From the NCBI GenBank assembly GCA_000004985.1, contig GG738958.1: DNA of 43,517 bases; one strand, 5' to 3'. Shown in pieces: positions 153-40,400 of this stretch. Below the pieces are notes generated by a model. It had not been told where the DNA came from, ran no database searches, and saw only the letters and a program-made list of their open reading frames with translations. Made by a program: the position numbers and the translations under genes. Position 1 is the first letter of the stretch. Each line of letters opens with the position of its first letter. Source of the stretch: Naegleria gruberi. Taxonomy: Eukaryota.

Positions 153-1655
153 ATGCAACCAACACACCATGACAATCCAAAACAACGACTGTCTTACAGT
201 TTAAAACGACATTATTGCCTCACAACTTCTAAAAAACAACACAACAATATGCAATCCAAATCCACATCCAAATTACCAAGCAAGAGGTTATCTTTGCAAA
301 CAACCAATTCCACATCTCGCCTCAACAATGAACATAATAGACGCTCTCTCAATTCATCCACAACTAATTGTGATACATGTTCCACTACATCTAGTAGCAC
401 CTCCTCAACCAATACTGATTCATTCTACTCAACTACAGAAGCAAGTATGCTGAGTGTGAGTATGGAATTGTTGGACACAATGATTGTTTATCCAGGTGGT
501 AAACACTCAGTATTACAACTCAGTGAAAAGCATCGTGTATTGTTAGTATTTATCAAATGGTTTGGTTGTCCAATTTGTCAGAATGTCATTGATGACTTAC
601 AGAGATATCTGTCAAGCTTTTTATTGTTAAATATTGTTCCAGTAGTTTGTCATCAAGAAGATATTTCCAAGTTTTCAGAATACCTTTCGAATACTCAATT
701 ATTGCATTGTAGGATAACCAAGGAAATGAAGAAGGAATTCTCTGTCAAGAAAGCTTCCCTCCTAAAACATGCCAAAGTAATGCCAAGCATGATCAAGTTA
801 ATGGTACAGAAAAAGAAGAAATTCTTCTTGCCTTCAGCTCATGAAATCAAAGGTATGGACATGCTTTCATCATTTGGCATGTATATTGTACATAAGGGAC
901 AAGTAACAAGCAGCTATTCATCTGATATTTTGAATGCAAGACCAGATTATGGTGTTTTCTTGTTCCACTTGAAAGAAGATCATTTATATTCAGATAGTTC
1001 ATCTCCAGAAGACTTTCTTCCAAGACTTTTAAAGCTATTCCCAAACATGAAGATGGTATTTGAGGAATTGAGAGAGAAGAGAAAACAACAACCTGAATTA
1101 TCATCCCTTCCACTCACACCTAGAGGATCTAATTTCAGTACTAGTTTTAAAAACAATGAAGAGGATGAATTCTCATTGAAAAATGTCTTGGAAAATGCAA
1201 CCATGAGAACATTCTTCAAGGCCTTCCTATCCAATCAATATTGTTTGGAGCCAGTTATCTTTTATGAGCAAGTTAAAATGTTCAGAATGTTGTGTCAGAG
1301 AAGATCACCTGCCAGCCCATCATTCGAATATCAAATGGAGAATATTCTTGCACACAATTCACCTAGCTCAGCATTGGATTTGAAAATTCAAGAATGCAAA
1401 CAAAAGGCCGAATACATAATTGATAACTTTTTGAAAGATACCTCCATGTTTCAAATCAAAACAAGTGGAAAGTTATTAAGGAAATTATTCTCAGCCATTG
1501 AAGAGAAATGCTCTGATGAAACACTTTTTGATGATATTTTACAAGATATCATATCGAGCATGTTAGTGTTTCGTTTCGAAAATTTTACTGATTCACCTTT
1601 TTTCCAAGACATGATTCATAGAGTACAATCGAATAAAGTTGTGACATCAAATTGA
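153..1655 (+). CDS. Thioredoxin-fold (CxxC, AhpC/TSA- or PRXL2/SelU-like) plus C-terminal RGS (regulator of G-protein signalling) domain protein, 500 aa, single uninterrupted ORF
   Basis: ATG at 153, TGA at 1653-1655. N-terminal S/T/N-rich low complexity. Mid region VLLVFIKWFGCPICQNVIDDLQ has the thioredoxin-fold CxxC signature (established family pattern). C-terminal about 140 aa fit the RGS helix pattern: TFFKAFLSNQYCLEPVIFYEQVKMF (F..FL..E.s.E...F), YIIDNFLKDTSMFQIKTSGKL, and IISSMLVFRFENFTDSPFF (RGS C-terminal ...F.RF..S..Y/F). The RGS call is by-eye motif matching, not a search. Confidence 0.6.
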   Translation: MQPTHHDNPKQRLSYSLKRHYCLTTSKKQHNNMQSKSTSKLPSKRLSLQTTNSTSRLNNEHNRRSLNSSTTNCDTCSTTSSSTSSTNTDSFYSTTEASMLSVSMELLDTMIVYPGGKHSVLQLSEKHRVLLVFIKWFGCPICQNVIDDLQRYLSSFLLLNIVPVVCHQEDISKFSEYLSNTQLLHCRITKEMKKEFSVKKASLLKHAKVMPSMIKLMVQKKKKFFLPSAHEIKGMDMLSSFGMYIVHKGQVTSSYSSDILNARPDYGVFLFHLKEDHLYSDSSSPEDFLPRLLKLFPNMKMVFEELREKRKQQPELSSLPLTPRGSNFSTSFKNNEEDEFSLKNVLENATMRTFFKAFLSNQYCLEPVIFYEQVKMFRMLCQRRSPASPSFEYQMENILAHNSPSSALDLKIQECKQKAEYIIDNFLKDTSMFQIKTSGKLLRKLFSAIEEKCSDETLFDDILQDIISSMLVFRFENFTDSPFFQDMIHRVQSNKVVTSN

Positions 1656-2069: not shown

Positions 2070-5000
2070 ATGGATATTTTCTGTGTGTGTATAGCAGAAT
2101 TTGATTTACTCAAAGGAAACACACTTTCACATGTGTATCCACCCGAACGAAGAACTATTCTAAACACTTTCACATCTCATTTGGGAGATTATTGTCTTCC
2201 GGATGGTGCTCACTATTTTGAAGAGGATGCTACCTATCTGGTAATTCCTTCAAATGTTGTGAGTTCTTCTCTGTATAGTTATTTGAAATCGGGTGCTTCT
2301 TCTAACAATGTTTCTAGTGTTTCGAATAGTGAGAATAGTTCAGTTGTTAATAATACACAACAAGTAATGGAATTTATTGAACCCTATGTGGATAAACCAA
2401 TGTATGCTCATTGTTTATTTAGAAATAAGAAGGATGAACGTGTCAAGAGAGGTGCCATTCAAAAGTCAATTATTTTATTTTCATCAAAACCATTATTTAC
2501 TGTTTATGAGAATTTATTGAGATTGGCATTGAATAGAATTTTGGATTTGGATAATATTCACTTACAGGTTAATGCTACAGCTACTAAGAAACAACCAGGT
2601 GAAGAATTAAACGAAACGGATTTAAATCTTTTGAATCAAGTTCATGATCAGATTAATGATACTTTGAAAGAGTTTTATAACGAGTGCAGAAATTGTAACA
2701 TGTTACAATTGAAATTATTCCCAAATACTGATACTATTACTTTGAATATTCCACGTCAGATTGATCCATTCACACCAATTGCATTTACACATGGAACTTC
2801 TCTTGTACAATTAGTTCAATATTTTGGATTGGAAACAATGCTTGTTTGTTGGAATGCTCTATTGTTGGATAAGAGAATTATGGTAATTGGTTCACCTGCC
2901 AAGTTGGTTTCACAGATCTGTCTCACTCTTCCTCTCTTGATTTATCCATTCCAATATAATGTCAATCGTGTACATCCATATGTGCCACTCTCAGAGATGG
3001 ATGATGTGTTATCTGCAACTTCTAAAATTCCAGAATATATCATTGGTACGACGAATGCTCTCTTTGAAACTCAAGGAAAAAATCAGAGAACTCAATGGTG
3101 GGATGTTTGTTTGAGTGTCAATTCTAGAAAAGTTCAACTTGCTGAAAAGATGCCACCTCATTTCGGTGGTTCTGATTTGGCATTCCTCAATACCAATGAT
3201 AGCGAAGATGTTCAAATTGAAAAGCTCAATGCCTATCAGAAAGTATTCATGTTAAATGTCATTAGTGGAGTGAGAGATGGAAAGAGTGAACAATGGGTTC
3301 GTGATCAGTTCAAAACTCACAATCTCAAGTTTATTACCGAATTATTGACAAAGGGAAAGCTTACTGATATAGTTGAGAATGTTCCGTCTGATGTAGGTGT
3401 CGATCCACAAAAACAACAAGTGGCTTTGAAGAATATTTCAGGAGGTCAATTGAAAAAGATTCAAAGACAGTTCATTGCTGAATCCTCCAAGTTTAGAACC
3501 TATGCTTTCAAACAATATTCAACATTTAGAAGTTCACACTGTAGTGGAGATAAGAGTGATGACAAACAATCGGAATCTGTTCTCCAATTATTGCAATATT
3601 TACAGGACGATAGGATTATCAAGAAGCAAAAGCTTAAATACTTGTTTGATTTGGATAAGATGTTGTGTAATGTTGATCAAATTGACTTGTTATTGTCAGT
3701 TAGTGATAATTCAAGTATTTTTACAACTATTAAGAATAACAAGTGGTTAATTGATGATAATAATCAGTGGAGAAAGTACAGTGCCAGTATTTTATCCCAA
3801 TTGGCAATTAGTGTTAAAGGTCAAATTCAATTATTGTCTCTTCTTCCATCTATCAAACTCTTGACCGAAGATTCAATGCCAAATGTCAAGAGAATTGGTT
3901 ATTACTGTATTATGAAGGTTAGCAACTTGTACATTGGTACATATGCCATCTTGAGAAACCACCACGACATTATTGAAAAGATTCTTGATAACATTTTGAA
4001 TGAGAGTGTGACAGATGCCAATTTTTATGAAATTAGAATGTACAGCATTCAAACCTTGTTACAAATTTGTCACTATTTTGATTATTTCAAACAGAGTATT
4101 AATGTTATCATGACAGATAAGGTCAATAATAATATGATTGAAGATGACGATGCCTACGCCAAGATTGTCAGTGTTTCCGTTGATAATTCAATGATTTCTT
4201 CAATTGTTGAAAAATTGGAAGGATTTAAAACTAAAATTGCTGGCAGTTTCTCCTACAGTAGTATTTCCAATAACAGTGTAGCAAAAAGAAGTTTGAACGA
4301 TTACAAATTCATTGACAAGTTACTGATTCTCTACGATTACTATGAACTCTATAATAATTACCACATTCTCACTGAGAGTGCTCTCAAGTACAATATGAAT
4401 GTCTTTTATTATTTGAGAAATTTTGACAATTCTCAGGCAAATTCATCCTTCACTGAAATGTATCATCACATCTCATCTATCATTATGAATATTAAGAATG
4501 ATTTGAAGAAGAGTAGTTCAGTTCAACAATCAGAGGGCGAAGATTCCAGTGATCCTCAAACACACATCAATGAATTCCATCATCACCACATGAGTGTTTA
4601 CTTGTTAGCTCTCTTACAAAGCACCAATTTGATCAATATCATTTTCAATGAATTTATTTTGAACGTGAATCATATCAAAACTTACAAGAATTACAAAATG
4701 CTCTACATGGTCATGCAATTATTGTACTATGTCATTGATACCAATGTTGGAATGTACTATTTATTAATTTCCAATTATATTGAATATTGCTTGACATTTA
4801 TCAAGTACTTTTCCATTTTGAAGAACAATGATCCAGAGGAAAGCAGTGAGGGCAATTTGAATTTCAGACTTTTCAAATGTTATTCCTTTATCATGTTCCT
4901 CAAAAGACTTTGCAAGTATAAGAAGGCAGCGTGTAGACTCATTGAATCTAATGCTCTTCATATTTTAGGTCAATTCATCATTACTCATTATTACAATCCA

Positions 5001-5579
5001 TTATTATCCAATTTGACCTATGCAGCCATTGATGTATTCCAAGATCTTTCTGTATTTTACTTTACACACTATTCCAATCCATTGGATTCTCAATGTGTAA
5101 CCCAATATTTCATTGAAGAGGATTCCACCAATAGCAGTGGCAACCAAGACGAGGAAGAATTCTTTAAAAATCCACTCTATGAGAGAAATTCCACATTGTA
5201 CTTTAAGAAGAGAATTAAGGATCGTCTGGAAATTCTGCCAGAACTCAGAAAGAAACATTTATTCAATTCTCTCTACAAAATTGCCTCAGCAACCTCAAAA
5301 ACTGAAGATTTTGAAAAGAATTTCCAACACGAAGCCATGTTAGAAAGCTCAAACTTCAAATACCATTATCATTTACAAAAACCAAGTGAGAAATCTCCGA
5401 GAGTTCTTTCAAGACTTTCCAAATTTAAACAAAAATTTACAGTGCAAACTAGTGAAAATGATGGAGATGATCATTTTGAGATGAATGTTTTGGATCAGAA
5501 ATTGAGACAGTGTGTTCATATTTTGAATACTTTTATTTTCAATTCAGATAATGAAATGAAACTTTCTTCTGAGGAATAA
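2070..5579 (+). CDS. AVL9-like / DENN-related (late secretory pathway protein Avl9 family) protein with long C-terminal extension, 1169 aa, single ORF
   Basis: ATG at 2070, TAA at 5577-5579. The N-terminal 300 aa align by eye to human/yeast AVL9: LSHVYPP..LPDGAHYFEEDATYLV versus AVL9 FSYPPL...LPDGAHNYQEDTVFF; RGAIQKSIILFSSKPLF versus RETVQKSVCVLSKLPLY; LVQLVQYFGLETMLVCWNALLLDKRIMVIGSPAKLVSQICLTLPLLIYP versus LVLHFRHKVLILFKLILLEKKVLFYISPVNKLVGALMTVLSLFPGMI. The C-terminal about 800 aa are N/S/K/Y-rich and unassigned. AATAAA (5575-5580) overlaps the stop codon. Confidence 0.6.
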   Translation: MDIFCVCIAEFDLLKGNTLSHVYPPERRTILNTFTSHLGDYCLPDGAHYFEEDATYLVIPSNVVSSSLYSYLKSGASSNNVSSVSNSENSSVVNNTQQVMEFIEPYVDKPMYAHCLFRNKKDERVKRGAIQKSIILFSSKPLFTVYENLLRLALNRILDLDNIHLQVNATATKKQPGEELNETDLNLLNQVHDQINDTLKEFYNECRNCNMLQLKLFPNTDTITLNIPRQIDPFTPIAFTHGTSLVQLVQYFGLETMLVCWNALLLDKRIMVIGSPAKLVSQICLTLPLLIYPFQYNVNRVHPYVPLSEMDDVLSATSKIPEYIIGTTNALFETQGKNQRTQWWDVCLSVNSRKVQLAEKMPPHFGGSDLAFLNTNDSEDVQIEKLNAYQKVFMLNVISGVRDGKSEQWVRDQFKTHNLKFITELLTKGKLTDIVENVPSDVGVDPQKQQVALKNISGGQLKKIQRQFIAESSKFRTYAFKQYSTFRSSHCSGDKSDDKQSESVLQLLQYLQDDRIIKKQKLKYLFDLDKMLCNVDQIDLLLSVSDNSSIFTTIKNNKWLIDDNNQWRKYSASILSQLAISVKGQIQLLSLLPSIKLLTEDSMPNVKRIGYYCIMKVSNLYIGTYAILRNHHDIIEKILDNILNESVTDANFYEIRMYSIQTLLQICHYFDYFKQSINVIMTDKVNNNMIEDDDAYAKIVSVSVDNSMISSIVEKLEGFKTKIAGSFSYSSISNNSVAKRSLNDYKFIDKLLILYDYYELYNNYHILTESALKYNMNVFYYLRNFDNSQANSSFTEMYHHISSIIMNIKNDLKKSSSVQQSEGEDSSDPQTHINEFHHHHMSVYLLALLQSTNLINIIFNEFILNVNHIKTYKNYKMLYMVMQLLYYVIDTNVGMYYLLISNYIEYCLTFIKYFSILKNNDPEESSEGNLNFRLFKCYSFIMFLKRLCKYKKAACRLIESNALHILGQFIITHYYNPLLSNLTYAAIDVFQDLSVFYFTHYSNPLDSQCVTQYFIEEDSTNSSGNQDEEEFFKNPLYERNSTLYFKKRIKDRLEILPELRKKHLFNSLYKIASATSKTEDFEKNFQHEAMLESSNFKYHYHLQKPSEKSPRVLSRLSKFKQKFTVQTSENDGDDHFEMNVLDQKLRQCVHILNTFIFNSDNEMKLSSEE

Positions 5580-5604
5580 AAATTATATTCGAAAGTATAT
5601 CATG

Positions 5605-6153
5605 TTATGGAAATGTAATGTTTGGAAAGTAGTGGAGGAGTAATAGAAATATATTTTGGTAAATTTGCAAATTTGTTAACAATTGACAATCTGTTATTTG
5701 TGTGGAATTTGATCGCATGTCAGTAGCATTAGAATTACTTAGAGGAAAGTGGACGAAATGGCAATAATCTGATGGCGTGATTGTTGACGCATGCATGTCA
5801 TTTTCCATTTGCTGATTTTTCGCTTTGTTCAATTCTTCCAAAATCGAATATTCACTATCAACATGCATATTAGGATTACTGACATGTGTCTCGACATGCA
5901 TCTTGACAGGTAAGCTCATTACACTAGCTAAACTATCCTTCTTTGATAAAACTCTAAATTGTGATGTTGGCTCTTGATGTTTCTCTACATGAAATACGAA
6001 ATAATTATCCAAAAATCTTTCGTTTAATAAAGTCTTTCTTAAACGTTGAGTTTTCAGTTTGTTTTCACGTTTGGCTATTCGCATGGAAGTTCTCAATGTT
6101 TCGTCTATGAAAGAAACATCTCTTTGATTGAGTTTCGAATAAGATTGGGGCAT
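5605..6153 (-). CDS. Member A of tandem small-protein family (divergent copy, 182 aa), function unknown
   Basis: ATG = cat at 6151-6153, stop tta at 5605-5607. Shares the N-terminal module with the other copies (FIDETLRTSMRIAKRENKLKTQRLRKTLLNERFLDNYFVFHVEK versus F.DET.KTLNRI.KK.K.SAKHELRKQLCND.LLKNYFVLNPEK) and a C-terminal hydrophobic IFLLLLHYF versus LFLLQLCCA. Its stop lies 25 bp from the stop of the convergent AVL9-like gene. Confidence 0.55.
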   Translation of the reverse strand: MPQSYSKLNQRDVSFIDETLRTSMRIAKRENKLKTQRLRKTLLNERFLDNYFVFHVEKHQEPTSQFRVLSKKDSLASVMSLPVKMHVETHVSNPNMHVDSEYSILEELNKAKNQQMENDMHASTITPSDYCHFVHFPLSNSNATDMRSNSTQITDCQLLTNLQIYQNIFLLLLHYFPNITFP

Positions 6154-7192
6154 GTTTTTTTTTAGTTGGAAAGTTTCAAACTTTCTGTTCGATTCTTAAT
6201 GCACAAGGGTAATATCGAACAAGTCTGGTTGTGAGCACATTCAAAATGGTCAATGGTAAGATTTTTTAAAGTGCATGGTTATGGCATTATCCAAAAAGGG
6301 AACATTGACGGTCAATTAAGGTTTTTGCACATCAATTCAAAGTTGCCTTGTATAGTGCAATGAGTTCTTCCACAATAATTCTTGGTTAATACTACCAATC
6401 AAAAGTTAAAAGTTCCATTTTTGAACATTAACTTTAATACTGTTCTGTTTTCTGTTGTAAAAGTTAATTATTATTATTGCAATGTCGCACGAATGAAATT
6501 ATGCGTTTTATTGTTCTGATGATGGCACTCTTCTAAAATAGAAGTTTGATACTTGCTAATTATTGAGGCACCTGATGATTCGTTTCGTTTCTTTCGGTCT
6601 GTATGTGCTTAATGAAGTTGAGCAAACTTTCGAAAGTACACGTTTCGGTTTCACCACTTTCATTTCTAATAATAAGAATGTGGAAAGTACTGGTGGCAGT
6701 GGTGCAATGATTTTTCTGCAATAATTCTTGTATAAATTTCCATGATTGACCTTTGTTATTATAAGAAGGTTTCCACTCAACTTGTTGGAACATTAATTCA
6801 ACATTTTCTGCCTACATTTTAGAATATTAACAATTTGCTAATGATTGAAGCATCACCTGCTTGATTATCATGATAATTCTTCTGAAAGGTACACTTGTGC
6901 ACAAAATCACACTTAATATGCTGTAATCATTTAGTTTGACAGAGATTGGAAAATAGTTGTGGTTGTGGTATTGTTTCTACCTCGATATGGAACTGTGTGC
7001 TTAATGAAGTTTCCAATGAATTTTGATGAGAATCCTTTCGAATACAATCTGTTTCAGTTTCACTTAAAGAAGCGAGATGGGTAAAACAGAGATATTACTC
7101 AAAAGATAAGTTCTCAAAACAAAAGATCCCATTCTAAATCGCATTTATTAAAGTCATGAGAGTTGACGAAAGTTGCGACTCAACTGAGATTT

Positions 7193-7651
7193 TTATTGAA
7201 AGAAATTTCTGTTTTGTCCTTGATCCATAAGAGCACAACACAATTGCAGTAGAAATAAATCGAATTGTTGCTGATGGTTGTGGATAGTGTTTGGAGTTTC
7301 GTCTATTTGTTGTGTTTCATTTCGAATGATATTTGTTTCGAATAATTGATTTTGCTCGTGGTTATAGTTTGCTGATTGCAAGTTGTTGATCTTTGGTGGA
7401 GAAGTAGTAACGTGTTTAGTCACAATTAATTGTTCACTTTCGAATGATTTGGATCCATCAATTCGAAAGACAACAGTTTCGTCCTTTTCAGGGTTCAAAA
7501 CAAAGTAATTCTTCAATAAATCATCATTACACAATTGTTTTCTCAACTCGTGTTTGGCAGATATCTTGACCTTCTTTTGAATTCTATTCAATGTTTTACA
7601 AGTTTCGTCCTTGAACATTATTTGTTTCGTCTTCTTATTCGAATTATTCAT
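7193..7651 (-). CDS. Member B of tandem small-protein family, 152 aa, function unknown
   Basis: Complete ATG-to-TAA ORF: MNNSNKKTKQIMFKDETCKTLNRIQKKVKISAKHELRKQLCNDDLLKNYFVLNPEKDETVVFRIDGSKSFESEQLIVTKHVTTSPPKI...QQQFDLFLLQLCCALMDQGQNRNFFQ. It matches members C and D at about 75-80% identity by eye over the conserved blocks. AATAAA on the minus strand (tttatt at 7192-7197 on +) overlaps the stop codon. Confidence 0.65.
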   Translation of the reverse strand: MNNSNKKTKQIMFKDETCKTLNRIQKKVKISAKHELRKQLCNDDLLKNYFVLNPEKDETVVFRIDGSKSFESEQLIVTKHVTTSPPKINNLQSANYNHEQNQLFETNIIRNETQQIDETPNTIHNHQQQFDLFLLQLCCALMDQGQNRNFFQ

Positions 7652-8431
7652 CTTTGAGTTATTTTATTTAATATTAATTCAATGTCCAGCACACATGTTT
7701 CCATGATCAAAAGTTTGCCTTTATCAACTGAACCTGCCAAAATTGTCCTTTTTGATATTGACAATCAGATGTGCTGCATTTAAACAATCACATTTACAAA
7801 CTTAAAACGAAAGGAGATATTCGATATGGAAAATTGCAATTTCATTATGGAATTAAGAGACAATTGCGGCTCTTTCAAATTTTGGCTTCATGAACTCGAG
7901 GGAAAGCACTTTAAAAGGAATTAGCTTTATTTGTCAAATTTCCTAAGGGAAATGAGATTGTAGGAGCTCAATATCACAACATTTAAATATTTACAAATGT
8001 GAGAACAATCAGATTCGACGAAAGGAACACTGAATGATGAACTTAACCAAGTAGCTCACAAGCTATGAGAGTCGGATATTAAAGAAAGAAAGCAATTCAT
8101 CCATGATATTAATCCACACTTAATTATTTTCGTAAAATATCTAAAAATTGCTTAGACGTACAAGTAATTTGCCTTGTAATTAAACAAATTTACTACCCTT
8201 TGGTTATCATTTTACTTGCTCGTTGGATATCTAGGATCTAAGTTTCTTGTGATGCGTACAGTATTCGAAAGTCACGTCCTCCGTGCATGTAAGCCAAACA
8301 ACTGTCATCCTTTCCAATAAACACACTTCAATTTTGCTAAAGCAGATCAATAGCGCTTCAACTGATAATTGATGTAAAGGTAAGAGCATTAACTGATAAG
8401 TGGAGATTGAAGAAATCTCAAATTTACAGAT

Positions 8432-8869
8432 TTATTGAAAATTATTTCTGTTTTCTCCTTGCTCTAATTGTGCACAACATAACTGCAGAAGGAATAGATT
8501 GAATTGTTGTTGGTTGTGGAGAGAGTTTGAAGTTTCGTCTAGTTGGGGATCATTTCGAATAAGTGGAATTGGCTCTTGGTTTTGATATGATACGTTGCTG
8601 ATCTTTGGTGGAGAGCAGCTGACTTGTTTAGTAACAATTAATTGCTCATTTTCGAATGATTTAATGTCATCAATGCGAAAGACTGAAGTTTCGTCTTTTT
8701 CTCTATCCAAAACAAAGTAATTCTTCAATAATTCATCATTGCATAATTGTTTCCTGAGTTCGTGCTTGGCAGACTTTACTTTCTTCTTGTTTATTCTATT
8801 CAATGTTTTACTAGTTTCGTCTGTGAACATTAGTTTCGGATTCTTTCCATTATTCGAATTATTCATCAT
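8432..8869 (-). CDS. Member C of tandem small-protein family, 145 aa, function unknown
   Basis: Complete ORF MMNNSNNGKNPKLMFTDETSKTLNRINKKKVKSAKHELRKQLCNDELLKNYFVLDREKDETSVFRIDDIKSFENEQLIVTKQVSCSPPKI...QQQFNLFLLQLCCAQLEQGENRNNFQ. The substitution pattern relative to member B is conservative and codon-level, which is coding-like divergence. AATAAA (tttatt at 8431-8436 on +) overlaps the stop. Confidence 0.65.
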   Translation of the reverse strand: MMNNSNNGKNPKLMFTDETSKTLNRINKKKVKSAKHELRKQLCNDELLKNYFVLDREKDETSVFRIDDIKSFENEQLIVTKQVSCSPPKISNVSYQNQEPIPLIRNDPQLDETSNSLHNQQQFNLFLLQLCCAQLEQGENRNNFQ

Positions 8870-10035
8870 GGAATCTTTTTGGTATTTTATTTGATCACGT
8901 AATTTGAGATTTTTGCTTCTGAACCTGTAAACAAGTCAGCAAGGAGCACCACTTTCTATCAAGAAATTTCCAACAGAAAGAGTTGTATAGTTGACAGATA
9001 TCAAAATTAAGGCACCTGACATGTGTCATGAGAGGAAGATAAGGTTGAATAAAAACGAAACATGTTAAATTTAGTTTATTTCTTTTTTGTTTATTTCTCG
9101 TAGAAGCTCTTCGTTGCAGACCTCTATTTTCTCCATTACTCTTCATTAAATAGGCAATCCACATTTTCCAAAAACACTTTTATCATGTAAAAAAGGAGAA
9201 TTCATTTATAGACTTTACAGTCGAAATTTACCATTTGTTGATTTGTAATTATTCGAAAATGATCTATTTCAGAAATGATGAGTATCCTATTTAACTTTGT
9301 TATATTTCACTGAATAGTTTTTCAGAAAAAGTTTTCCACTATCACTCACTACATGTGTTGAAACACATTGTTGAACAAAGTTCTGAGTTATTTTTAATAC
9401 TCTTCAATTCCACATATAATTATTACTGCTTTCATTTACAATTATCGCACATTAAAATTGTGTTTGTTGATGAATTGATGTAAATTCTTGCCAGTTTTGA
9501 TGTGACAGACTGATTCGGTCTGGTTGACAATACATGTACTCACTACTAGCTGTTGATTGTTGATCCTCTAGATTCAATCTATTTGATTGTGGTATTAAAA
9601 TGTTACATGGCCACACCTTTTTTTGACACACATGTACATGTAGCTGTTGTGTGCATGTTCAGCAATTTAACAATTATGATAACAATTGAAGCATGCTATA
9701 TCTCTTTCGAAACCACCACTATTAACTTTCTTCTAACAACATTATTCCGGTGCTACATGTAAGCACACATGGTAAGCATGTTGTTATTTCTTTTTTGTTT
9801 GAACGTATTGGAAGTCTACATGTTGTAACCTCCACACACTTGTTAATATTTCAATTTCACCAAAAGCAGTGAAATGACTCATTTTAAGCAGGCAAATTGC
9901 TTTTAAACGATCTAATGAATTTGTAACAGTGGTTTTTTCAAGATTAGTTTGCCTAAATCTGCATTCTTCGCGTAATTGACTAGCCGAAAGTGATGGATTA
10001 ATGAGAGAAAATTTACAAATCTCCAACTTGCAGAT

Positions 10036-10479
10036 TTATTGAAAGCAATTTCTTTTTTGCCCTTCTTGTTGGTGAATGAGTGCACAACACAATTGTAGAA
10101 GGAATTGGTTCATTTCTTGTTGGTTGTGGATGGTGTTTATAATTTCGTCTGGTTGTGGATCATTTCGAATGGTTTCAGATACTGGTGGATTTGGTTCATG
10201 GTGATGAGTTGATTGGACGTTAGTGACCATTGAGTGTTTAGTCACAATTACTTGCTCATTTTCTAATGGTGTGTTTTCAATTCGAAAGACAACAGTTTCG
10301 TCCTTTTCAGGGTTCAAAACAAAGTAATTCTTTAATAAATCATGATTACACAACTGTTTTCTCAATTCATGTTTGGCAGATATCTTTTCCTTCTTCTTAT
10401 GTATTCTATTCAATGTTTTACAAGTTTCGTCCATAAACTTTATAACTTTCTCCTTCTTTCTAATATTCGAATTATTCAT
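10036..10479 (-). CDS. Member D of tandem small-protein family, 147 aa, function unknown
   Basis: Complete ORF MNNSNIRKKEKVIKFMDETCKTLNRIHKKKEKISAKHELRKQLCNHDLLKNYFVLNPEKDETVVFRIENTPLENEQVIVTKH...QQEMNQFLLQLCCALIHQQEGQKRNCFQ. AATAAA (tttatt at 10035-10040 on +) overlaps the stop. Its 3' flank is alignable with those of members B and C (agatttattgaaa..atttctgttttgtccttg). Confidence 0.65.
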   Translation of the reverse strand: MNNSNIRKKEKVIKFMDETCKTLNRIHKKKEKISAKHELRKQLCNHDLLKNYFVLNPEKDETVVFRIENTPLENEQVIVTKHSMVTNVQSTHHHEPNPPVSETIRNDPQPDEIINTIHNQQEMNQFLLQLCCALIHQQEGQKRNCFQ

Positions 10480-10874
10480 CTCTTTGAGCTTTTTTTATTT
10501 TAATCTGTAGAGACCTGTCATCAGTTACAAGATCTCGTGTATGTAAGTGAAGCATGAACAATTATAATTTGTAACTTCTAATCTGAGAATTTGAGATTTT
10601 TGAGTTGCATTTGGCAATTAATTTTGTCCTTTTCAGAACACATACATCAAATTGAAGTGTTTGACATGTGTGAGGGTAAGTGTATGTATACAATGAAGTG
10701 TTTGACATGAGTTCGTTTGTGGTACCATGACTTTATTCGAAACTAAAGTTAATTTTCATTGTTCTATTCAAGACCATTAAAATTCCAATTTTGATTCTTG
10801 TTTATTAACCAGTTTTTCAAATTATTATTCAAGGTTCAGCACATCAGTACAATAGAAAGGAGACGAAAGTTTTT

Positions 10875-11279
10875 TCAGTTTAATAATTCTTTTATTGATA
10901 TTGAAGTTCTTACCACTCGTGTATGGTTTCTATTAAAATTTGACTTATTCATTAATTGTGAGCTATTTTGATTAGTTTGCAATGTTTCAGGTTTAGTTTC
11001 TAATACTTTCTTTTCTTTTTTTCGTTTTGGAGGTTTCTTTGTTATTCCCTTCTTGTTGCTGACCTTCCACTTTTCAAGAGTCTCAGTCTTGGTCACTATC
11101 ATTCTATTAGAAGAATAATTATTAGACGAATCCCCTTTCTTTGGTCTTCCTCTCCCTCTTTTCATTATTTCTTCTCCGCCATTACTGTCCTTTCGTGGTG
11201 GCGAGAATTCCACCATAGAGAATGTGTGATAATTATTAATCTTGTAGGAAGATGTAGATGCTGTATTGATTAGTGTCAT
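10875..11279 (-). CDS. Small basic ORF with one canonical AT-hook (KRGRGRPKKG), 134 aa; possible HMGA-like DNA-binding protein embedded in the paralog array
   Basis: ATG (cat at 11277-11279) to TGA (tca at 10875-10877). Contains RGRP flanked by K/R (AT-hook core) and a second basic stretch KKPPKRKKEKK; the rest is S/N/T-rich low complexity. There is no paralog in the window. It could be a chance ORF in AT-rich DNA, so confidence is low. Confidence 0.35.
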   Translation of the reverse strand: MTLINTASTSSYKINNYHTFSMVEFSPPRKDSNGGEEIMKRGRGRPKKGDSSNNYSSNRMIVTKTETLEKWKVSNKKGITKKPPKRKKEKKVLETKPETLQTNQNSSQLMNKSNFNRNHTRVVRTSISIKELLN

Positions 11280-11636
11280 TTTTGTTTTTTGAAAAGAAAA
11301 TTACATGAAACACGTTTTCATTAAAAAGGCAATCCATAAAGTCTCTTTTTAATGGGGGAGATTCATGTCCACTTTAAGATATCAACACATTCTTTGAAAT
11401 GCTTTCTCGAAGGAGCAATTCATGTAATGCAGCTGTTTACTGCCGTTACATTACAATACGATTGAAAAGGCAAGTAAGTGTTCCAAAAACAGTTGGAAAT
11501 GAAATCTAAATGGAGTGTTTCAAAGGAGATGATAGCTCTTGGCCGGATTGGTATTTTCATGCCTATGGTTAAAAATCTGGTTTGAGAAATTGAGTGGGTG
11601 GAAACTTAGTTTCGAATAATTGTTTATTGGTGAATG

Positions 11637-12083
11637 TTAGTATTCTTGTTGGTATTGTAAGAGTAAGCTGTACAGTTGAAGGAGAAAGATCATTTCTTGT
11701 TGATAGGTAGAATTATCCATTTGTTGATTTGTATTCGAAACTGTGAAATGCTGATGATCCACAGCATGTGTATTCATTTCATCTTGTCTATTTTCTTGAT
11801 TTCTCTCCTCAATTCTATTCGATTCTCCAACTAGTCTAACATGTTGAGTTACCACACTATTTCCGATTTTAAACTCTTTATCTATTCGAAAGGTTGTCAA
11901 TTGATCCTTCCTATTATCAAAAACAAAGTAATTCTTTAAAATTTCATCATTCTGTAATTGCTTTCTCAATCCTGGATATTTACTTTTTGGTTTCCTCTTG
12001 ATAATCTTGTCTGTGGTCTTTACTGTTTCGTCTATTATCGAAAATTGTTTCGAACCTTTCTTCTGGTTTTGACCACTTGGCAT
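11637..12083 (-). CDS. Member E of tandem small-protein family (more divergent), 148 aa, function unknown
   Basis: Complete ORF MPSGQNQKKGSKQFSIIDETVKTTDKIIKRKPKSKYPGLRKQLQNDEILKNYFVFDNRKDQLTTFRIDKEF...QQEMIFLLQLYSLLLQYQQEY. It retains the IDET..KT...I.K, LRKQL.ND..LKNYFV, FRID and C-terminal FLLQL blocks, but CC is replaced by YS. AATAAA (tttatt at 11623-11628 on +) lies 9 nt past the stop. Confidence 0.6.
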   Translation of the reverse strand: MPSGQNQKKGSKQFSIIDETVKTTDKIIKRKPKSKYPGLRKQLQNDEILKNYFVFDNRKDQLTTFRIDKEFKIGNSVVTQHVRLVGESNRIEERNQENRQDEMNTHAVDHQHFTVSNTNQQMDNSTYQQEMIFLLQLYSLLLQYQQEY

Positions 12084-12484
12084 TGTTGTTTAATTTTTTA
12101 TTGAATTACATCTCCTCACAGCGCTTTAGCTGAGGATTAGTTTCGTGGAAATGTAATGCAGACCGAAACTATGAAACCTCAAATTTGGTCATTGATTTCC
12201 TAACTGTTATGAAATTGTAAAGATTAGTTTTAATCTTACCCGTTTCTCTTGAGGATATTGCCTTTAAAAGTCGTTATAATGCACTTTTGTTCTATATGGA
12301 GTCCACATTGTTTTCAATCTTTCGAATATAGACTGTTCAGCATGATGAAATAGAAGTGTTTCATAAACATTTAGCTGACTAATCTTCAGCTAATCTTCAG
12401 CATGCTGTGATTCTTGTTGGTTGTGGTGTAATTGAATGCAATGGAATCCACAGCTGATTGTATCTAGCAGCTCTATTATCCGTC

Positions 12485-36051: not shown

Positions 36052-37280
36052 TTATAAGAGAGTAGCTCTTTCACCAGAGACACGTTTGTAATTCCTTACA
36101 AACATGACAACGGTCACAATGAGTAAGGCAACTGCAAAGATTAAGAAGAGAGCACATAGGGAAATAATGATACCAAAGAAGGCCTTACCAACTTTCATAT
36201 CTTCTGAAATCACACAAGTATTCTTTGAGGCATTGTAATCATAACCATCATCACAAGCGAATGGACAATTGTTGGTAGTGGATGAGTTGGTGTAGACTGC
36301 ATTTTCAGCTGGCTTATTAGTACAAGCAGTACAGGAAAGTTGACCTGGGTTATATTCACCAATGGCACATGGAATGCAGTTCTTCTTTTCAGCAGAGAAA
36401 CCAAATCCAGGATTACAGCTGGTCAAGATACAGGTTGGAACATATTTACCAGTGTTGGTATTACAATTTTGAACACCTTGTCCATTTGTCAAGTTACATG
36501 CCTTGGTTTGCCATTTAGCACAAATATCAAAGAATTTCATAGTATCAATCCAAACCTTTGATCTATCAACAGCACTTTCCTTAGTATAACTCAATCTGAA
36601 ATCAGAACCTTCAAAGAAGAATTCCAAAGGTGTTAATTCATTTTGATTCCAAGCATAAGCTTCACGAATGGCAAATCTGAATCTTGATTGAACTGGAAGT
36701 GGCTTTGGAGTAACATCTGAATTAATGTTCAAACTCTTAATATCAGCAAGTAAATCTTCAAATTCATAAACTTGACCACCTGGAACTTGTGCAATTTGTT
36801 GTGGTTGACCACTCAAACCACCAACGACAACAGTCTTTACCTTTTGAGATTCTTGGAGGTGACGAGTGAACAATGCACAAGTGGAGGCACATCTACCATT
36901 TGAGAGGAGAATGAAATCATCTGGTGAGTACTTTAACAAATCTTCACCAGTGAAATAGTAATTATCAAATGATGGTTGACAATAATTTTCCTTAAGAATG
37001 GATGAATAGAATGCTGGTTTTCCATCAGTACCTCTAATGTAACTCTTTTGATTGGTATACCAAGTTTCATCTTTGAAATTCTTTCCATCAATAGTCTTCC
37101 AAGTAGCAAAATTCCAAATAGAATCAGCATCTGGTGACAATTTGGTTCCAGCAGTTGCTAATTGTCTTCCCAATTCTGTGGCAATCATGTCAGTTCTAGC
37201 AAAGAGAGTTTCAAAATTGCTAGAGAAGGCATTAGAGTGCAAATATTTAATGAGGGCATAACCCAAACATTCTTCACCAC
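36052..37280 (-). CDS. Terminal exon of a peptidase S41 (C-terminal processing/tail-specific protease family)-like type I membrane protein: catalytic-core C-terminal half, Cys-rich stalk, single TM, short cytoplasmic tail
   Basis: Stop tta at 36052-36054. Aligns by eye to E. coli Prc/CtpA around the serine motif: LLSNGRCASTCALFTRHLQESQKVKTVVVGG versus VLVDRFSASASEIFAAAMQDYGRALVVGE. This is followed by a Cys-rich region (CNLTNGQGVQNC...CIPCAIGEYNPGQLSCTACTN...CPFACDDGYDYNASKNTC; TNFR/furin/GCC2-GCC3-like spacing), then a hydrophobic TM FFGIIISLCALFLIFAVALLIVTVVMFV and tail RNYKRVSGERATLL. The exon starts at 37280 directly after an AAATAG acceptor. The ORF-track start at 37266 is a TTG printed as M, not a real start. 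AATAAA (tttatt at 36042-36047 on +) lies 4 nt past the stop. Confidence 0.8.
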
Positions 37281-37485: not shown

Positions 37486-40400
37486 NNNNNNNNNNNNNNN
37501 NNNNNNNNNNNNNNNNNNNNNNNNNNNNNNNNNNNNNNNNNNNNNNNNNNNNNNNNNNNNNNNNNNNNNNNNNNNNNNNNNNNNNNNNNNNNNNNNNNNN
37601 NNNNNNNNNNNNNNNNNNNNNNNNNNNNNNNNNNNNNNNNNNNNNNNNNNNNNNNNNNNNNNNNNNNNNNNNNNNNNNNNNNNNNNNNNNNNNNNNNNNN
37701 NNNNNNNNNNNNNNNNNNNNNNNNNNNNNNNNNNNNNNNNNNNNNNNNNNNNNNNNNNNNNNNNNNNNNNNNNNNNNNNNNNNNNNNNNNNNNNNNNNNN
37801 NNNNNNNNNNNNNNNNNNNNNNNNNNNNNNNNNNNNNNNNNNNNNNNNNNNNNNNNNNNNNNNNNNNNNNNNNNNNNNNNNNNNNNNNNNNNNNNNNNNN
37901 NNNNNNNNNNNNNNNNNNNNNNNNNNNNNNNNNNNNNNNNNNNNNNNNNNNNNNNNNNNNNNNNNNNNNNNNNNNNNNNNNNNNNNNNNNNNNNNNNNNN
38001 NNNNNNNNNNNNNNNNNNNNNNNNNNNNNNNNNNNNNNNNNNNNNNNNNNNNNNNNNNNNNNNNNNNNNNNNNNNNNNNNNNNNNNNNNNNNNNNNNNNN
38101 NNNNNNNNNNNNNNNNNNNNNNNNNNNNNNNNNNNNNNNNNNNNNNNNNNNNNNNNNNNNNNNNNNNNNNNNNNNNNNNNNNNNNNNNNNNNNNNNNNNN
38201 NNNNNNNNNNNNNNNNNNNNNNNNNNNNNNNNNNNNNNNNNNNNNNNNNNNNNNNNNNNNNNNNNNNNNNNNNNNNNNNNNNNNNNNNNNNNNNNNNNNN
38301 NNNNNNNNNNNNNNNNNNNNNNNNNNNNNNNNNNNNNNNNNNNNNNNNNNNNNNNNNNNNNNNNNNNNNNNNNNNNNNNNNNNNNNNNNNNNNNNNNNNN
38401 NNNNNNNNNNNNNNNNNNNNNNNNNNNNNNNNNNNNNNNNNNNNNNNNNNNNNNNNNNNNNNNNNNNNNNNNNNNNNNNNNNNNNNNNNNNNNNNNNNNN
38501 NNNNNNNNNNNNNNNNNNNNNNNNNNNNNNNNNNNNNNNNNNNNNNNNNNNNNNNNNNNNNNNNNNNNNNNNNNNNNNNNNNNNNNNNNNNNNNNNNNNN
38601 NNNNNNNNNNNNNNNNNNNNNNNNNNNNNNNNNNNNNNNNNNNNNNNNNNNNNNNNNNNNNNNNNNNNNNNNNNNNNNNNNNNNNNNNNNNNNNNNNNNN
38701 NNNNNNNNNNNNNNNNNNNNNNNNNNNNNNNNNNNNNNNNNNNNNNNNNNNNNNNNNNNNNNNNNNNNNNNNNNNNNNNNNNNNNNNNNNNNNNNNNNNN
38801 NNNNNNNNNNNNNNNNNNNNNNNNNNNNNNNNNNNNNNNNNNNNNNNNNNNNNNNNNNNNNNNNNNNNNNNNNNNNNNNNNNNNNNNNNNNNNNNNNNNN
38901 NNNNNNNNNNNNNNNNNNNNNNNNNNNNNNNNNNNNNNNNNNNNNNNNNNNNNNNNNNNNNNNNNNNNNNNNNNNNNNNNNNNNNNNNNNNNNNNNNNNN
39001 NNNNNNNNNNNNNNNNNNNNNNNNNNNNNNNNNNNNNNNNNNNNNNNNNNNNNNNNNNNNNNNNNNNNNNNNNNNNNNNNNNNNNNNNNNNNNNNNNNNN
39101 NNNNNNNNNNNNNNNNNNNNNNNNNNNNNNNNNNNNNNNNNNNNNNNNNNNNNNNNNNNNNNNNNNNNNNNNNNNNNNNNNNNNNNNNNNNNNNNNNNNN
39201 NNNNNNNNNNNNNNNNNNNNNNNNNNNNNNNNNNNNNNNNNNNNNNNNNNNNNNNNNNNNNNNNNNNNNNNNNNNNNNNNNNNNNNNNNNNNNNNNNNNN
39301 NNNNNNNNNNNNNNNNNNNNNNNNNNNNNNNNNNNNNNNNNNNNNNNNNNNNNNNNNNNNNNNNNNNNNNNNNNNNNNNNNNNNNNNNNNNNNNNNNNNN
39401 NNNNNNNNNNNNNNNNNNNNNNNNNNNNNNNNNNNNNNNNNNNNNNNNNNNNNNNNNNNNNNNNNNNNNNNNNNNNNNNNNNNNNNNNNNNNNNNNNNNN
39501 NNNNNNNNNNNNNNNNNNNNNNNNNNNNNNNNNNNNNNNNNNNNNNNNNNNNNNNNNNNNNNNNNNNNNNNNNNNNNNNNNNNNNNNNNNNNNNNNNNNN
39601 NNNNNNNNNNNNNNNNNNNNNNNNNNNNNNNNNNNNNNNNNNNNNNNNNNNNNNNNNNNNNNNNNNNNNNNNNNNNNNNNNNNNNNNNNNNNNNNNNNNN
39701 NNNNNNNNNNNNNNNNNNNNNNNNNNNNNNNNNNNNNNNNNNNNNNNNNNNNNNNNNNNNNNNNNNNNNNNNNNNNNNNNNNNNNNNNNNNNNNNNNNNN
39801 NNNNNNNNNNNNNNNNNNNNNNNNNNNNNNNNNNNNNNNNNNNNNNNNNNNNNNNNNNNNNNNNNNNNNNNNNNNNNNNNNNNNNNNNNNNNNNNNNNNN
39901 NNNNNNNNNNNNNNNNNNNNNNNNNNNNNNNNNNNNNNNNNNNNNNNNNNNNNNNNNNNNNNNNNNNNNNNNNNNNNNNNNNNNNNNNNNNNNNNNNNNN
40001 NNNNNNNNNNNNNNNNNNNNNNNNNNNNNNNNNNNNNNNNNNNNNNNNNNNNNNNNNNNNNNNNNNNNNNNNNNNNNNNNNNNNNNNNNNNNNNNNNNNN
40101 NNNNNNNNNNNNNNNNNNNNNNNNNNNNNNNNNNNNNNNNNNNNNNNNNNNNNNNNNNNNNNNNNNNNNNNNNNNNNNNNNNNNNNNNNNNNNNNNNNNN
40201 NNNNNNNNNNNNNNNNNNNNNNNNNNNNNNNNNNNNNNNNNNNNNNNNNNNNNNNNNNNNNNNNNNNNNNNNNNNNNNNNNNNNNNNNNNNNNNNNNNNN
40301 NNNNNNNNNNNNNNNNNNNNNNNNNNNNNNNNNNNNNNNNNNNNNNNNNNNNNNNNNNNNNNNNNNNNNNNNNNNNNNNNNNNNNNNNNNNNNNNNNNNN

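What the first reader, a model, noticed from the sequence alone, without database searches (positions are those of the whole stretch)
5605..12083. Tandem array of five same-strand paralogs of an unrecognised small-protein family (145-182 aa)
Five complete minus-strand ORFs at 5605-6153, 7193-7651, 8432-8869, 10036-10479 and 11637-12083 share an ordered set of blocks. (1) An N-terminal basic module M(N)NSN...F.DET.KTLNRI.KK.K.SAKHELRKQLCND.LLKNYFVL..EKDET.VFRID. (2) A central module ..SFE.EQLIVTKHV..SPPKI. (3) A variable Q/N/H-rich linker. (4) A C-terminal QQ.F.LFLLQLCCAL..Q..NRN.FQ with an adjacent Cys pair. Divergence is graded: B, C and D are close, A and E more distant. Substitutions are conservative and codon-wise, as expected of genes under purifying selection rather than decaying repeats. 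I cannot place the family in any fold I know. I considered MADS, Myb, HSF, bZIP, homeodomain and forkhead. The only faint echo is AKHELRKQLCND..NP versus the Myb third helix AKHL.GRIGKQCRERW.NHLNP, but no Trp is present, so I rejected it. The basic N-terminus together with the neighbouring AT-hook ORF suggests a nucleic-acid-binding or chromatin role. The C-terminal LLQLCCA could be a lipidation or metal site. The array abuts the 23-kb N run, so it may be larger than seen.
Basis: seen in the sequence. Interest (0 to 1): 0.7.

Follow-up and report, generated by a model that had tools for sequence, protein, structure and literature searches.

The report
Naegleria-specific tandem small-protein gene family
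Five neighbouring genes in the amoeba Naegleria gruberi encode real, selectively maintained small proteins of a family found only in Naegleria and its sister genus Willaertia; nothing known resembles them, but lineage-restricted families of this sort are common in protist genomes.

Summary
Five minus-strand ORFs sit at the stated coordinates and are clear paralogs: B, C and D are 60-65% identical, A and E are more distant. No sixth copy is visible in the window.

They are genes, not decaying repeats. dN/dS among B, C and D is 0.29-0.36. DNA similarity stops at the ORF borders.

The window is a whole Naegleria gruberi NEG-M scaffold and an alternative haplotype of a locus on a 351.7-kb scaffold, where the order is DENN gene, B', C', D', an extra D-like copy, then E'. 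B, D and E are already in GenBank as 'predicted protein'. A and C are not annotated.

An exhaustive HMMER search of 1.84 billion proteins found only 13 relatives. All that carry a source name are from N. gruberi or Willaertia magna. Pfam, PDB sequence search, AlphaFold2 plus Foldseek, and tests of LINE-1 endonuclease, importin-alpha IBB, Cip/Kip inhibitor and PP1-docking similarities all failed.

The proteins share two constrained modules. One is a basic N-terminal module ([FI]xDET, a basic linker, LRKxLxNxxLLxNYF, a beta-hairpin). The other is a C-terminal hydrophobic helix. A nearly neutral, disordered linker joins them.

My best guess, which is inference only, is small nuclear adaptor or activator-like proteins. 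Overall this is a new orphan family of an ordinary kind, of modest interest.

The parts
5605..6153 (-). Paralog A (182 aa), the most divergent copy, with a long insertion before the C-terminal hydrophobic stretch. It is not annotated in GenBank. N-module at nt 5950-6117; C-terminal hydrophobic stretch at nt 5614-5661.
   Evidence: ORF. Family HMM E = 6e-51. A 97%-identical ORF lies on metagenome contig L002, with pN/pS = 0.21. The exact sequence is absent from the protein collection. Sub-coordinates.
7193..7651 (-). Paralog B (152 aa) = NAEGRDRAFT_76319. N-module at nt 7460-7621; C-terminal helix QFDLFLLQLCCALMDQ at nt 7220-7267.
   Evidence: AlphaFold2 predicts a helix at residues 121-147, the only stretch with a 10-residue block pLDDT near 78. 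Sub-coordinates.
8432..8869 (-). Paralog C (145 aa), not annotated in GenBank on this scaffold. Its allele on the 351.7-kb scaffold is NAEGRDRAFT_71131 (93% identical). N-module at nt 8672-8833; C-terminal helix at nt 8459-8506.
10036..10479 (-). Paralog D (147 aa) = NAEGRDRAFT_76320. N-module at nt 10279-10443; C-terminal helix at nt 10066-10113.
11637..12083 (-). Paralog E (148 aa) = NAEGRDRAFT_76322, an older lineage of the family. A 60%-identical relative (P0007) comes from sequencing run SRR21279712, organism unknown. N-module at nt 11883-12044; C-terminal helix at nt 11652-11699.
7662..7668 (-). AATAAAA heptamer 17-22 nt upstream of the ATG. It recurs at the same relative position upstream of C (8885-8891), D (10493-10499) and E (12096-12102). 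It is the only shared upstream element and may be a core-promoter or TATA-like element (inferred).
   Evidence: It is the only 7-mer shared by at least 4 of the 5 upstream regions. The count itself is at chance level (1 observed against 0.9 in shuffles), so only the positional coincidence is notable.

Best explanation
What it is (high confidence, about 0.9): a tandem array of five functional, single-exon protein-coding genes. They belong to a taxonomically restricted family known only from Naegleria gruberi-type amoebae and Willaertia magna. Local duplication at this locus in the N. gruberi lineage generated the array. A and E are old copies; B, C and D arose later (dS 0.5-0.7 among them).

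How the proteins are built (shown): they have two modules.
- A basic N-terminal module of about 55 residues consists of a hydrophobic strand, an invariant DET that starts a basic amphipathic helix, a basic linker of variable length, the invariant LRKxLxNxx[LF]LxNYF, and a beta-hairpin ending in [FY][KRN][IVL].
- A short C-terminal hydrophobic helix is flanked by acidic residues in the distant members.
- A Q/N/S/T/H-rich linker joins the two. It is predicted to be disordered and evolves almost neutrally.

How they most likely work (inferred, about 0.3): they are small nuclear adaptor or regulator proteins. The lysine-rich N-module would carry the protein into the nucleus and dock it onto DNA or a conserved nuclear partner, folding on binding. 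The C-terminal acidic-hydrophobic helix would recruit a second factor, in the way a transcriptional activation motif does. Duplication and fast divergence of the linker would diversify dosage or specificity.
For: Real genes:
- dN/dS is 0.29-0.36 among B, C and D, with 95% bootstrap intervals below 0.6.
- A against its 97%-identical counterpart on L002 gives pN/pS = 0.21.
- DNA similarity is confined to the ORFs and the intergenic DNA cannot be aligned.
- Start and stop positions are conserved, and AATAAAA lies at -17 to -22 in four copies.

Modular constraint: omega is 0.19-0.37 in the N-module, 0.63-0.79 in the linker and 0.08-0.26 in the C-terminal helix.

Restricted distribution:
- Only 13 proteins reach E <= 1e-3 among 1.84 billion representatives. 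Every named one is from N. gruberi or W. magna.
- JGI metagenomes and IMG/VR hold no relatives.
- No copy lies within 10 kb of the orthologous DENN gene in N. lovaniensis or W. magna.

Tandem duplication recurs: W. magna also has a same-strand pair.

Architecture:
- The invariant columns are D, E, T, L, R, K, L, N, Y and F across 15-17 diverse members, with indels in the basic linker.
- AlphaFold2 predicts a helix at residues 11-27 and a hairpin at 42-57 of the N-module (pLDDT 65, pTM 0.24). The C-terminal helix is predicted, and residues 57-119 have pLDDT below 50.
- Net charge is +5 to +9 in the first 66 residues and -3 to -6 in the linker. KKxK-type patches are present in B to E.
- The C-termini of distant members are acidic and hydrophobic, for example NENLDLLQFLMQLTD, DDCESFLSSISFLYN, LDLEDFIQSLKDFR and SDDESTFL.
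Against: - No expression, localisation or interaction data could be reached. The one transcriptome table found is truncated before these gene IDs.
- The nuclear-adaptor reading rests only on charge, composition and motif shape.
- The invariant residues include acidic DET, which is unusual for a DNA-contacting surface.
- The array copies B to D have a barely acidic C-terminus (net -1 or 0), so the likeness to an activation motif is weaker for them than for the distant members.
- AlphaFold2 confidence is low, so a compact novel fold in the N-module cannot be excluded.
- No N. fowleri or N. lovaniensis member was detected. That argues against an essential, conserved nuclear role.
Confidence: 0.55

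Rival explanations
1. These are disordered regulators that dock onto a conserved enzyme through short linear motifs. One candidate is a protein phosphatase 1 regulator using an RVxF-like motif ([KR]x[VIL]xF) just before DET. Another is a PCNA-type partner using the LxxYF part of LLKNYF.
For: The proteins are mostly predicted to be disordered. The invariant residues are polar and clustered, as in linear motifs, and the spacing between the two sub-motifs varies. A, B, C, D, P0003, P0014 and P0016 fit the RVxF expression at the aligned position (my reading of the alignment; the RVxF consensus is from my own knowledge).
Against: Only about 8 of 17 diverse members fit RVxF. E, P0007, P0015, P0017 to P0020, P0022 and P0023 do not, and the invariant residues are DET rather than V and F. 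The Q of a canonical PIP box is displaced by two residues. No partner was tested.
Confidence: 0.15
2. These are small peripheral-membrane or lipid-anchored proteins. The C-terminal hydrophobic stretch would insert into a membrane, palmitoylated at the Cys pair in B to D, and the basic N-module would bind acidic lipids.
For: A strongly hydrophobic 9-11-residue C-terminal segment is present in all five copies and is under strong constraint (omega 0.08-0.26). B, C and D carry a CC pair. The N-terminus is basic.
Against: The hydrophobic run is too short for a transmembrane tail anchor and is interrupted by Q. The CC pair is absent from A, E, P0003 (YC) and all distant members. There is no signal peptide. 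In long members the helix is followed by polar tails.
Confidence: 0.1
3. This is a fast-evolving locus under balancing or diversifying selection, for example in self/non-self recognition, mating compatibility or genetic conflict, rather than a housekeeping regulator.
For: - The locus was assembled three times in NEG-M, with a copy-number difference: the extra D-like gene 71133 is on the main scaffold only.
- Allelic protein identity is only 93-97% for B, C and D, against 98% for the DENN alleles over the 53% of the query that the shorter main-scaffold model covers.
- Against contig L002, the A CDS differs at 13 of 549 sites and the DENN CDS at 4 of 1614 (Fisher p = 1.4e-5). Synonymous divergence is 0.066 against 0.014.
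- No copy lies at the syntenic site in N. lovaniensis or W. magna.
Against: Within-pair dN/dS is well below 1, with no sign of positive selection at this resolution. Elevated divergence in tandem arrays is expected from ectopic gene conversion and mis-assembly of paralogs. The sample is two or three haplotypes. The alleles are similar, not idiomorphic.
Confidence: 0.1
4. This is a diverged member or fragment of a known domain family: a LINE-1-type endonuclease segment, the importin-beta-binding (IBB) domain of importin-alpha, a Cip/Kip or KRP CDK-inhibitor domain, or Myb.
For: - The best PDB sequence hit of the family profile is a human L1 endonuclease variant, 2v0r, over 60 residues (E = 0.38).
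- By eye, ELRKQLCNDDLLKNYFV resembles VELRKNKRDEHLLKKRNV of importin-alpha IBB domains, and KNYFxFD resembles KWNFDF of CDK inhibitors (my own recall).
Against: - The L1 match is at chance level: 22.7 bits and 30% identity over 43 residues. No endonuclease or reverse-transcriptase remnants flank any copy.
- hhalign against IBB gives probability 2.3% over 18 columns. Against Cip/Kip and KRP it gives 0.1%.
- Pfam IBB, CDI, Exo_endo_phos and Myb models give no hit for any of 17 members even at E <= 10.
Confidence: 0.05
5. These are dead repeats, chance ORFs or an assembly artefact.
For: No expression data were obtained. A and C were not called by the original annotation.
Against: dN/dS is 0.2-0.36. 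Similarity ends at the ORF borders. All five ORFs are intact, as are their alleles on other scaffolds and on independent contigs from ENA and Logan. The five copies differ from each other by 35-70%, so they are not collapsed or duplicated reads.
Confidence: 0.03

Closest known systems
Taxonomically restricted ('orphan') tandem gene families of protists, such as the large accessory and species-specific gene sets described for the genus Naegleria (PMC9928731)
   Same: The genes are lineage-restricted, have no Pfam domain, are annotated only as 'predicted protein', were expanded by local tandem duplication, evolve fast and differ in copy number between haplotypes.
   Different: This particular family has not been described as a family. 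It has a recognisable two-module architecture shared between two genera (Naegleria and Willaertia), so it is older than a species-level orphan.
Small eukaryotic transcriptional activators or adaptors built as a basic docking module, a low-complexity linker and a terminal acidic-hydrophobic activation motif (VP16 or Gcn4-type activation motifs; general knowledge)
   Same: The order of the parts, the charge pattern, the disordered Q/N-rich linker and the short terminal amphipathic hydrophobic helix are alike.
   Different: There is no sequence or structural homology to any known DNA-binding domain. No DNA binding or activation has been shown. The C-terminus of B to D is hardly acidic.
Importin-beta-binding (IBB) domain of importin-alpha (Pfam PF01749)
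   Same: Both have a basic helical N-terminal segment with an 'ELRK...D(D/E)xLLK' stretch.
   Different: hhalign probability is 2.3% over only 18 columns. There is no Pfam hit. The arginine-rich RRRR and KRRN motifs are absent, and a beta-hairpin follows here.
Intrinsically disordered PP1 regulators with an RVxF docking motif (inhibitor-2, inhibitor-3 and the like; general knowledge)
   Same: They are small, largely disordered proteins with a basic residue and a hydrophobic-x-Phe motif followed by acidic residues.
   Different: The RVxF expression fits only about half of the members, and the invariant positions are DET and LRK...NYF instead.

Membership tests
Any Pfam-A family (including Myb_DNA-binding, bZIP, MADS/SRF-TF, HSF, Homeodomain, Forkhead, IBB, CDI, Exo_endo_phos) | Match to the family HMM at or above the gathering score | tested here: not met
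   The five copies have no hit better than E = 0.018, and all are below cut-off. Among 17 diverse members scanned at E <= 10, no family is hit by more than one member.
LINE-1 / APE-type endonuclease (EEP fold) | Significant sequence similarity across the catalytic motifs (GDFN ... SDH), with flanking endonuclease or reverse-transcriptase sequence | tested here: not met
   The PDB profile hit 2v0r_A has E = 0.38 over 60 residues.
Importin-alpha IBB domain | Profile-profile similarity over the roughly 40-residue basic helix, including the RRRR and KRRN motifs | tested here: not met
Pfam PF01749 is not hit.
Cip/Kip and KRP CDK inhibitors (Pfam CDI) | A cyclin-binding RxLF motif plus the CDK-binding WNFDF...YEW segment | tested here: not met
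   hhalign probability is 0.1%. There is no CDI hit.
PP1 regulators with RVxF docking | [RK]-x(0,1)-[VIL]-{P}-[FW] conserved at one aligned position in all members | tested here: not met
   About 8 of 17 members fit; E-type, P0015, P0017 to P0020, P0022 and P0023 do not (alignment).
PP1 regulators with RVxF docking | Physical binding to the PP1 catalytic subunit | not testable with these tools
   This needs a pull-down or a complex prediction.
Tail-anchored or lipidated membrane proteins | A C-terminal hydrophobic span of at least about 15-20 residues, or a conserved Cys acceptor | tested here: not met
   The hydrophobic run is 9-11 residues. The CC pair occurs only in B, C, D and close alleles.
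Functional protein-coding gene family (as opposed to decaying repeats) | dN/dS significantly below 1 between paralogs and between alleles | tested here: met
   Omega is 0.29, 0.36 and 0.33, with at most 0.1% of bootstrap replicates reaching 1. A against L002 gives pN/pS = 0.21.
Functional protein-coding gene family (as opposed to decaying repeats) | Evidence of transcription or translation | not tested
   The stored supplement of the N. gruberi time-course (10.1101/2024.01.08.573270) is cut before gene IDs 7xxxx. No other data were reachable.
Taxonomically restricted gene family | No detectable homolog outside a narrow clade in exhaustive searches | tested here: met
   There are 13 hits among 1.84 billion representatives, and every named one is from N. 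gruberi or W. magna. Metagenome and viral scans found no relative.

The most novel reading that the evidence does not exclude
The conserved N-terminal module ([FI]xDET, basic linker, LRKxLxNxxLLxNYF, beta-hairpin) would be a previously unseen nucleic-acid- or partner-binding domain unique to vahlkampfiid amoebae. The tandem array, unusually divergent between haplotypes and variable in copy number, would be a rapidly diversifying regulatory or compatibility locus in an organism whose sexual cycle and mating system have never been identified.
Probability: 0.1. Interest if true: 0.65.

Novelty: new member of a known kind. Interest (0 to 1): 0.3.

Why it matters
If the family is expressed, it adds a defined, alignable two-module protein family to the large pool of 'predicted proteins' in Heterolobosea. 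About 20 members are known, with invariant DET and LRKxLxNxxLLxNYF motifs. It also corrects the N. gruberi annotation, which misses two gene models on this scaffold.

The family offers a compact case for studying how short disordered regulators are born and diversify by tandem duplication. The elevated haplotype divergence at the locus is worth a look in population data.

It does not bear on a long-standing open question, and a specialist would not be surprised to find such a family in Naegleria.

Tried and rejected
- Pfam on the five copies and on 17 diverse members: nothing.
- PDB sequence search with two profiles: the best hits were an L1 endonuclease variant (E = 0.38) and a microsporidian ribosomal protein L6 (E = 0.3). 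Both are at chance level.
- L1 lead: followed up with blastp and tblastn. Rejected.
- AlphaFold2: full-length B gave pLDDT 51 and the N-module gave pLDDT 65 with pTM 0.24. Foldseek against PDB found nothing at E <= 0.001, as expected for such a model. I ran no further search on it.
- IBB and Cip/Kip/KRP resemblances noticed by eye: rejected by hhalign.
- RVxF, PIP-box, D-box, ABBA, SIM, LIR and NES patterns: checked by eye against the alignment. None is conserved across the family.
- Second word-indexed search with the N-module profile: returned only three known members.
- Metagenome and viral scans: no relatives.
- Exact-sequence look-ups of N. gruberi proteins: the index does not hold them, so the DNA of the 351.7-kb scaffold could not be compared.
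- Expression and proteomics: supplements of the chromatin proteomics preprint and the N. gruberi mitosis and differentiation transcriptome were searched. The first has no entries. The second is truncated before the relevant IDs, and the numeric hits were decimals.
- Literature search by locus tags and UniProt IDs: none found.
- Shared upstream motifs: only the positional AATAAAA.
- AT-hook ORF as a cryptic family member: rejected.

Full report
**Observation**

A five-way alignment has 24 invariant columns.

Within-window tblastn gives B-C 3e-54 (65% identity), B-D 1e-47 (63%), C-D 1e-44 (60%), B-E 2e-15, A-E 6e-10 and A-B 1e-6. The paralogy and the graded divergence are therefore real: B, C and D are close, A and E are distant.

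A six-frame scan of all non-N sequence with three family HMMs finds these five copies and no others. The window holds two N runs, 12485-35698 (23,214 nt) and 37486-41735 (4,250 nt).

**Where it comes from**

The window is a complete 43,517-bp scaffold of Naegleria gruberi NEG-M.
- B is NAEGRDRAFT_76319, D is 76320, the AT-hook ORF at 10875-11279 is 76321, and E is 76322.
- A and C are not in the deposited protein set.
- The flanking genes are an RGS-domain protein (153-1655) and a DENN/Avl9-type protein (2070-5579).

The same locus is assembled again on a 351,708-bp scaffold. There the DENN gene (NAEGRDRAFT_80839, UniProt D2VQ16; 98% identical over the 53% of the query covered by that shorter gene model) is followed by consecutive genes:

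| Locus tag | Copy | Identity to the window copy |
|---|---|---|
| 71130 | B' | 97% |
| 71131 | C' | 93% |
| 71132 | D' | 97% |
| 71133 | extra D-like copy | 82% to D |
| 71134 | not retrieved by any family search; identity unknown | - |
| 71135 | E' | one substitution |

A third scaffold of 15.5 kb carries the DENN gene again plus a D-like copy. The window is thus an alternative haplotype, or a very recent duplicate, of one locus. The other version argues that the array does not run far into the N gap. It has at most one more copy, and neither whole-database search found further array-type clusters.

**Genes or dead repeats?**

Nei-Gojobori estimates give the following:

| Pair | dN/dS | dS | 95% bootstrap interval |
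|---|---|---|---|
| B-C | 0.29 | 0.74 | 0.18-0.44 |
| B-D | 0.36 | 0.54 | 0.21-0.58 |
| C-D | 0.33 | 0.71 | 0.17-0.55 |

At most 0.1% of bootstrap replicates reach 1. Constraint is modular: omega is 0.19-0.37 in the N-terminal 66 residues, 0.63-0.79 in the middle and 0.08-0.26 in the last 26 residues.

Nucleotide similarity is confined to the ORFs plus about 19 nt after the stop codon. The intergenic spacers cannot be aligned; start-to-start spacing is 1212 and about 1607 nt among B, C and D, and about 1604 nt from D to E.

A metagenome contig (L002, 98.8% identical to window 3966-6511) carries an intact A with pN/pS = 0.21. These are selected protein-coding genes. No transcript or peptide evidence could be reached.

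**Distribution**

- The profile of 11 array-type sequences was run with HMMER against 1.84 billion representative proteins. It gave only 13 hits at E <= 1e-3.
- Besides the array types, these are dispersed N. gruberi genes (NAEGRDRAFT_72123, 76150, 71658/76731, 70228, 53199 and the partial EFC35725), two Willaertia magna proteins, and unnamed ENA or Logan contigs.
- Nothing was found in JGI metagenomes or IMG/VR. No N. fowleri or N. lovaniensis protein appeared.
- The orthologous DENN loci of N. lovaniensis (L003) and W. magna (L004) have no family member within 10 kb. The array at this site therefore arose in the N. gruberi lineage.
- W. magna has its own same-strand tandem pair at L005 2810-3265 and 3738-4226. 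The second copy has an in-frame stop or a short intron.

**Anatomy**

Across 15-17 diverse members the invariant columns are D-E-T, L-R-K, L, N-Y-F. The consensus reads: hydrophobic-x-[FI]-x-DET-x-[KRN]-[TV]-x-x-[KR]-hydrophobic, then a basic linker of variable length, then [KR]LRKx[LM]xNxx[LFI]LxNYF[VE]-hydrophobic-[DNH], then a short turn, then [FY][KRN][IVL].

AlphaFold2 on this module gives pLDDT 65 and pTM 0.24, with a helix at residues 11-27 and a beta-hairpin at 42-57. For full-length B the mean pLDDT is 51. Residues 57-119 fall below 50, and a helix at 121-147 includes the only block with a mean near 78.

The first 66 residues carry net charge +5 to +9, with KKxK-type patches in B to E. 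The middle is 43-58% Q/N/S/T/H/P and mildly acidic.

Most members end in a hydrophobic helix. In the distant members it is flanked by acidic residues:
- B: QFDLFLLQLCCALMDQ
- E: IFLLQLYSLLLQY
- P0018: NENLDLLQFLMQLTD
- P0015: NLLLALLYVLTAD
- P0023: DDCESFLSSISFLYN
- P0028: LDLEDFIQSLKDFR
- P0014 and P0016: ...ESTFL

The Cys pair is restricted to B, C, D and their close alleles.

**Comparison with known families**

- Pfam gives nothing, not even a recurrent weak hit.
- PDB sequence searches give only chance-level hits.
- I followed the top PDB hit, a LINE-1 endonuclease variant. blastp gives 22.7 bits, and there are no endonuclease or reverse-transcriptase remnants around any copy.
- Foldseek on the N-module model returns nothing meaningful.
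Importin-alpha IBB scored probability 2.3% over 18 columns. Cip/Kip and KRP inhibitors scored 0.1%.
- An RVxF-like PP1 docking pattern precedes DET in about 8 of 17 members but is not conserved.
- No membership in any known family is supported.

**Mechanism**

Shown: this is a selected, two-module, largely disordered protein family, amplified by tandem duplication.

Inferred: the charge pattern, the NLS-like lysine patches, the low-complexity linker and the terminal acidic-hydrophobic helix fit small nuclear adaptor or activator-like proteins best. The N-module would dock on DNA or a conserved partner and the C-terminal helix would recruit a second factor. I give this about 0.3.

Rivals, with rough probabilities:
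- Motif-based regulators of a conserved enzyme such as PP1: 0.15.
- Peripheral-membrane or lipidated proteins: 0.1.
- A rapidly diversifying compatibility or conflict locus: 0.1.
- A cryptic known domain: 0.05.
- Dead repeats: 0.03.

**A side observation worth keeping**

The array is much more divergent between haplotypes than its neighbour. Against L002, the A CDS has 13 differences in 549 nt and the DENN CDS has 4 in 1614 nt (Fisher p = 1.4e-5). Synonymous divergence is 0.066 against 0.014. Allelic protein identity for B, C and D is only 93-97%, with indels and one copy-number difference. Ectopic gene conversion among paralogs is the ordinary explanation. Balancing selection is not excluded.

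**Verdict**

It is wrong or unsupported in three details, namely the Cys pair as a functional site, the AT-hook neighbour as evidence, and the array possibly being much larger.

The family is new as a described family, but it is one more taxonomically restricted tandem family in a genus whose pangenome is dominated by accessory genes (PMC9928731). Interest is about 0.3.

Noticed in passing
window 5605-6153 and 8432-8869 (minus strand): Paralogs A and C are intact, selected ORFs but are missing from the GenBank protein set of this scaffold. B, D, E and the AT-hook ORF are annotated, so two gene models are missing.
   Followed up: yes
whole window, compared with the N. gruberi 351,708-bp and 15,509-bp scaffolds: The locus (DENN gene plus array) is assembled three times in NEG-M. 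The main scaffold has an extra D-like copy (NAEGRDRAFT_71133) that is absent here. The window is therefore an alternative haplotype or a very recent duplicate, with a copy-number difference.
   Followed up: partly
window 3966-6511 compared with L002: Against a 98.8%-identical metagenome contig, the A CDS has about ten times the substitution density of the adjacent DENN CDS (13 of 549 against 4 of 1614). Synonymous divergence is also higher, 0.066 against 0.014. Upstream of A there is a 10-bp indel at 6187-6196.
   Followed up: partly
window 10875-11279 (minus strand): An AT-hook ORF (134 aa, KRGRGRPKK; NAEGRDRAFT_76321) is embedded in the array between D and E. It is not a family member by HMM, has no Pfam hit, and has no twin above 90% identity in the protein collection. 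Whether the unretrieved NAEGRDRAFT_71134 on the main scaffold is its counterpart is unknown.
   Followed up: partly
window 7662-7668, 8885-8891, 10493-10499, 12096-12102 (minus strand): AATAAAA lies 17-22 nt upstream of the ATG of B, C, D and E. A has an A-run instead. It may be a core-promoter element. I did not check how common this is genome-wide.
   Followed up: partly
L005 2810-3265 and 3738-4226 (Willaertia magna JBEGDK010000073.1): W. magna has its own same-strand tandem pair of family members next to a BTB-Kelch gene. The second copy has an in-frame stop in the basic linker, which the annotation apparently bridges with a short intron.
   Followed up: partly
L003 and L004 (DENN orthologue loci of N. 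lovaniensis and W. magna): Gene order around the DENN gene is not conserved between the three species. N. lovaniensis has NAGPA and RdRP genes downstream. W. magna has a B-box gene. N. gruberi has the array there.
   Followed up: no
window 153-1655 (plus strand): A 500-aa protein has a C-terminal RGS domain (E = 5e-10). Its central region gives weak thioredoxin-fold-like (AhpC/TSA) and DUF929 hits, both below cut-off.
   Followed up: no
window 42778-43398 (plus strand) and 36052-37266 (minus strand): The islands between and after the N runs hold an ORF whose residues 145-195 match the start of a Ras-family GTPase, probably an exon of a spliced gene. They also hold a 404-aa ORF with a weak, sub-threshold TNFR/ELAPOR-like Cys-rich hit.
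   Followed up: no
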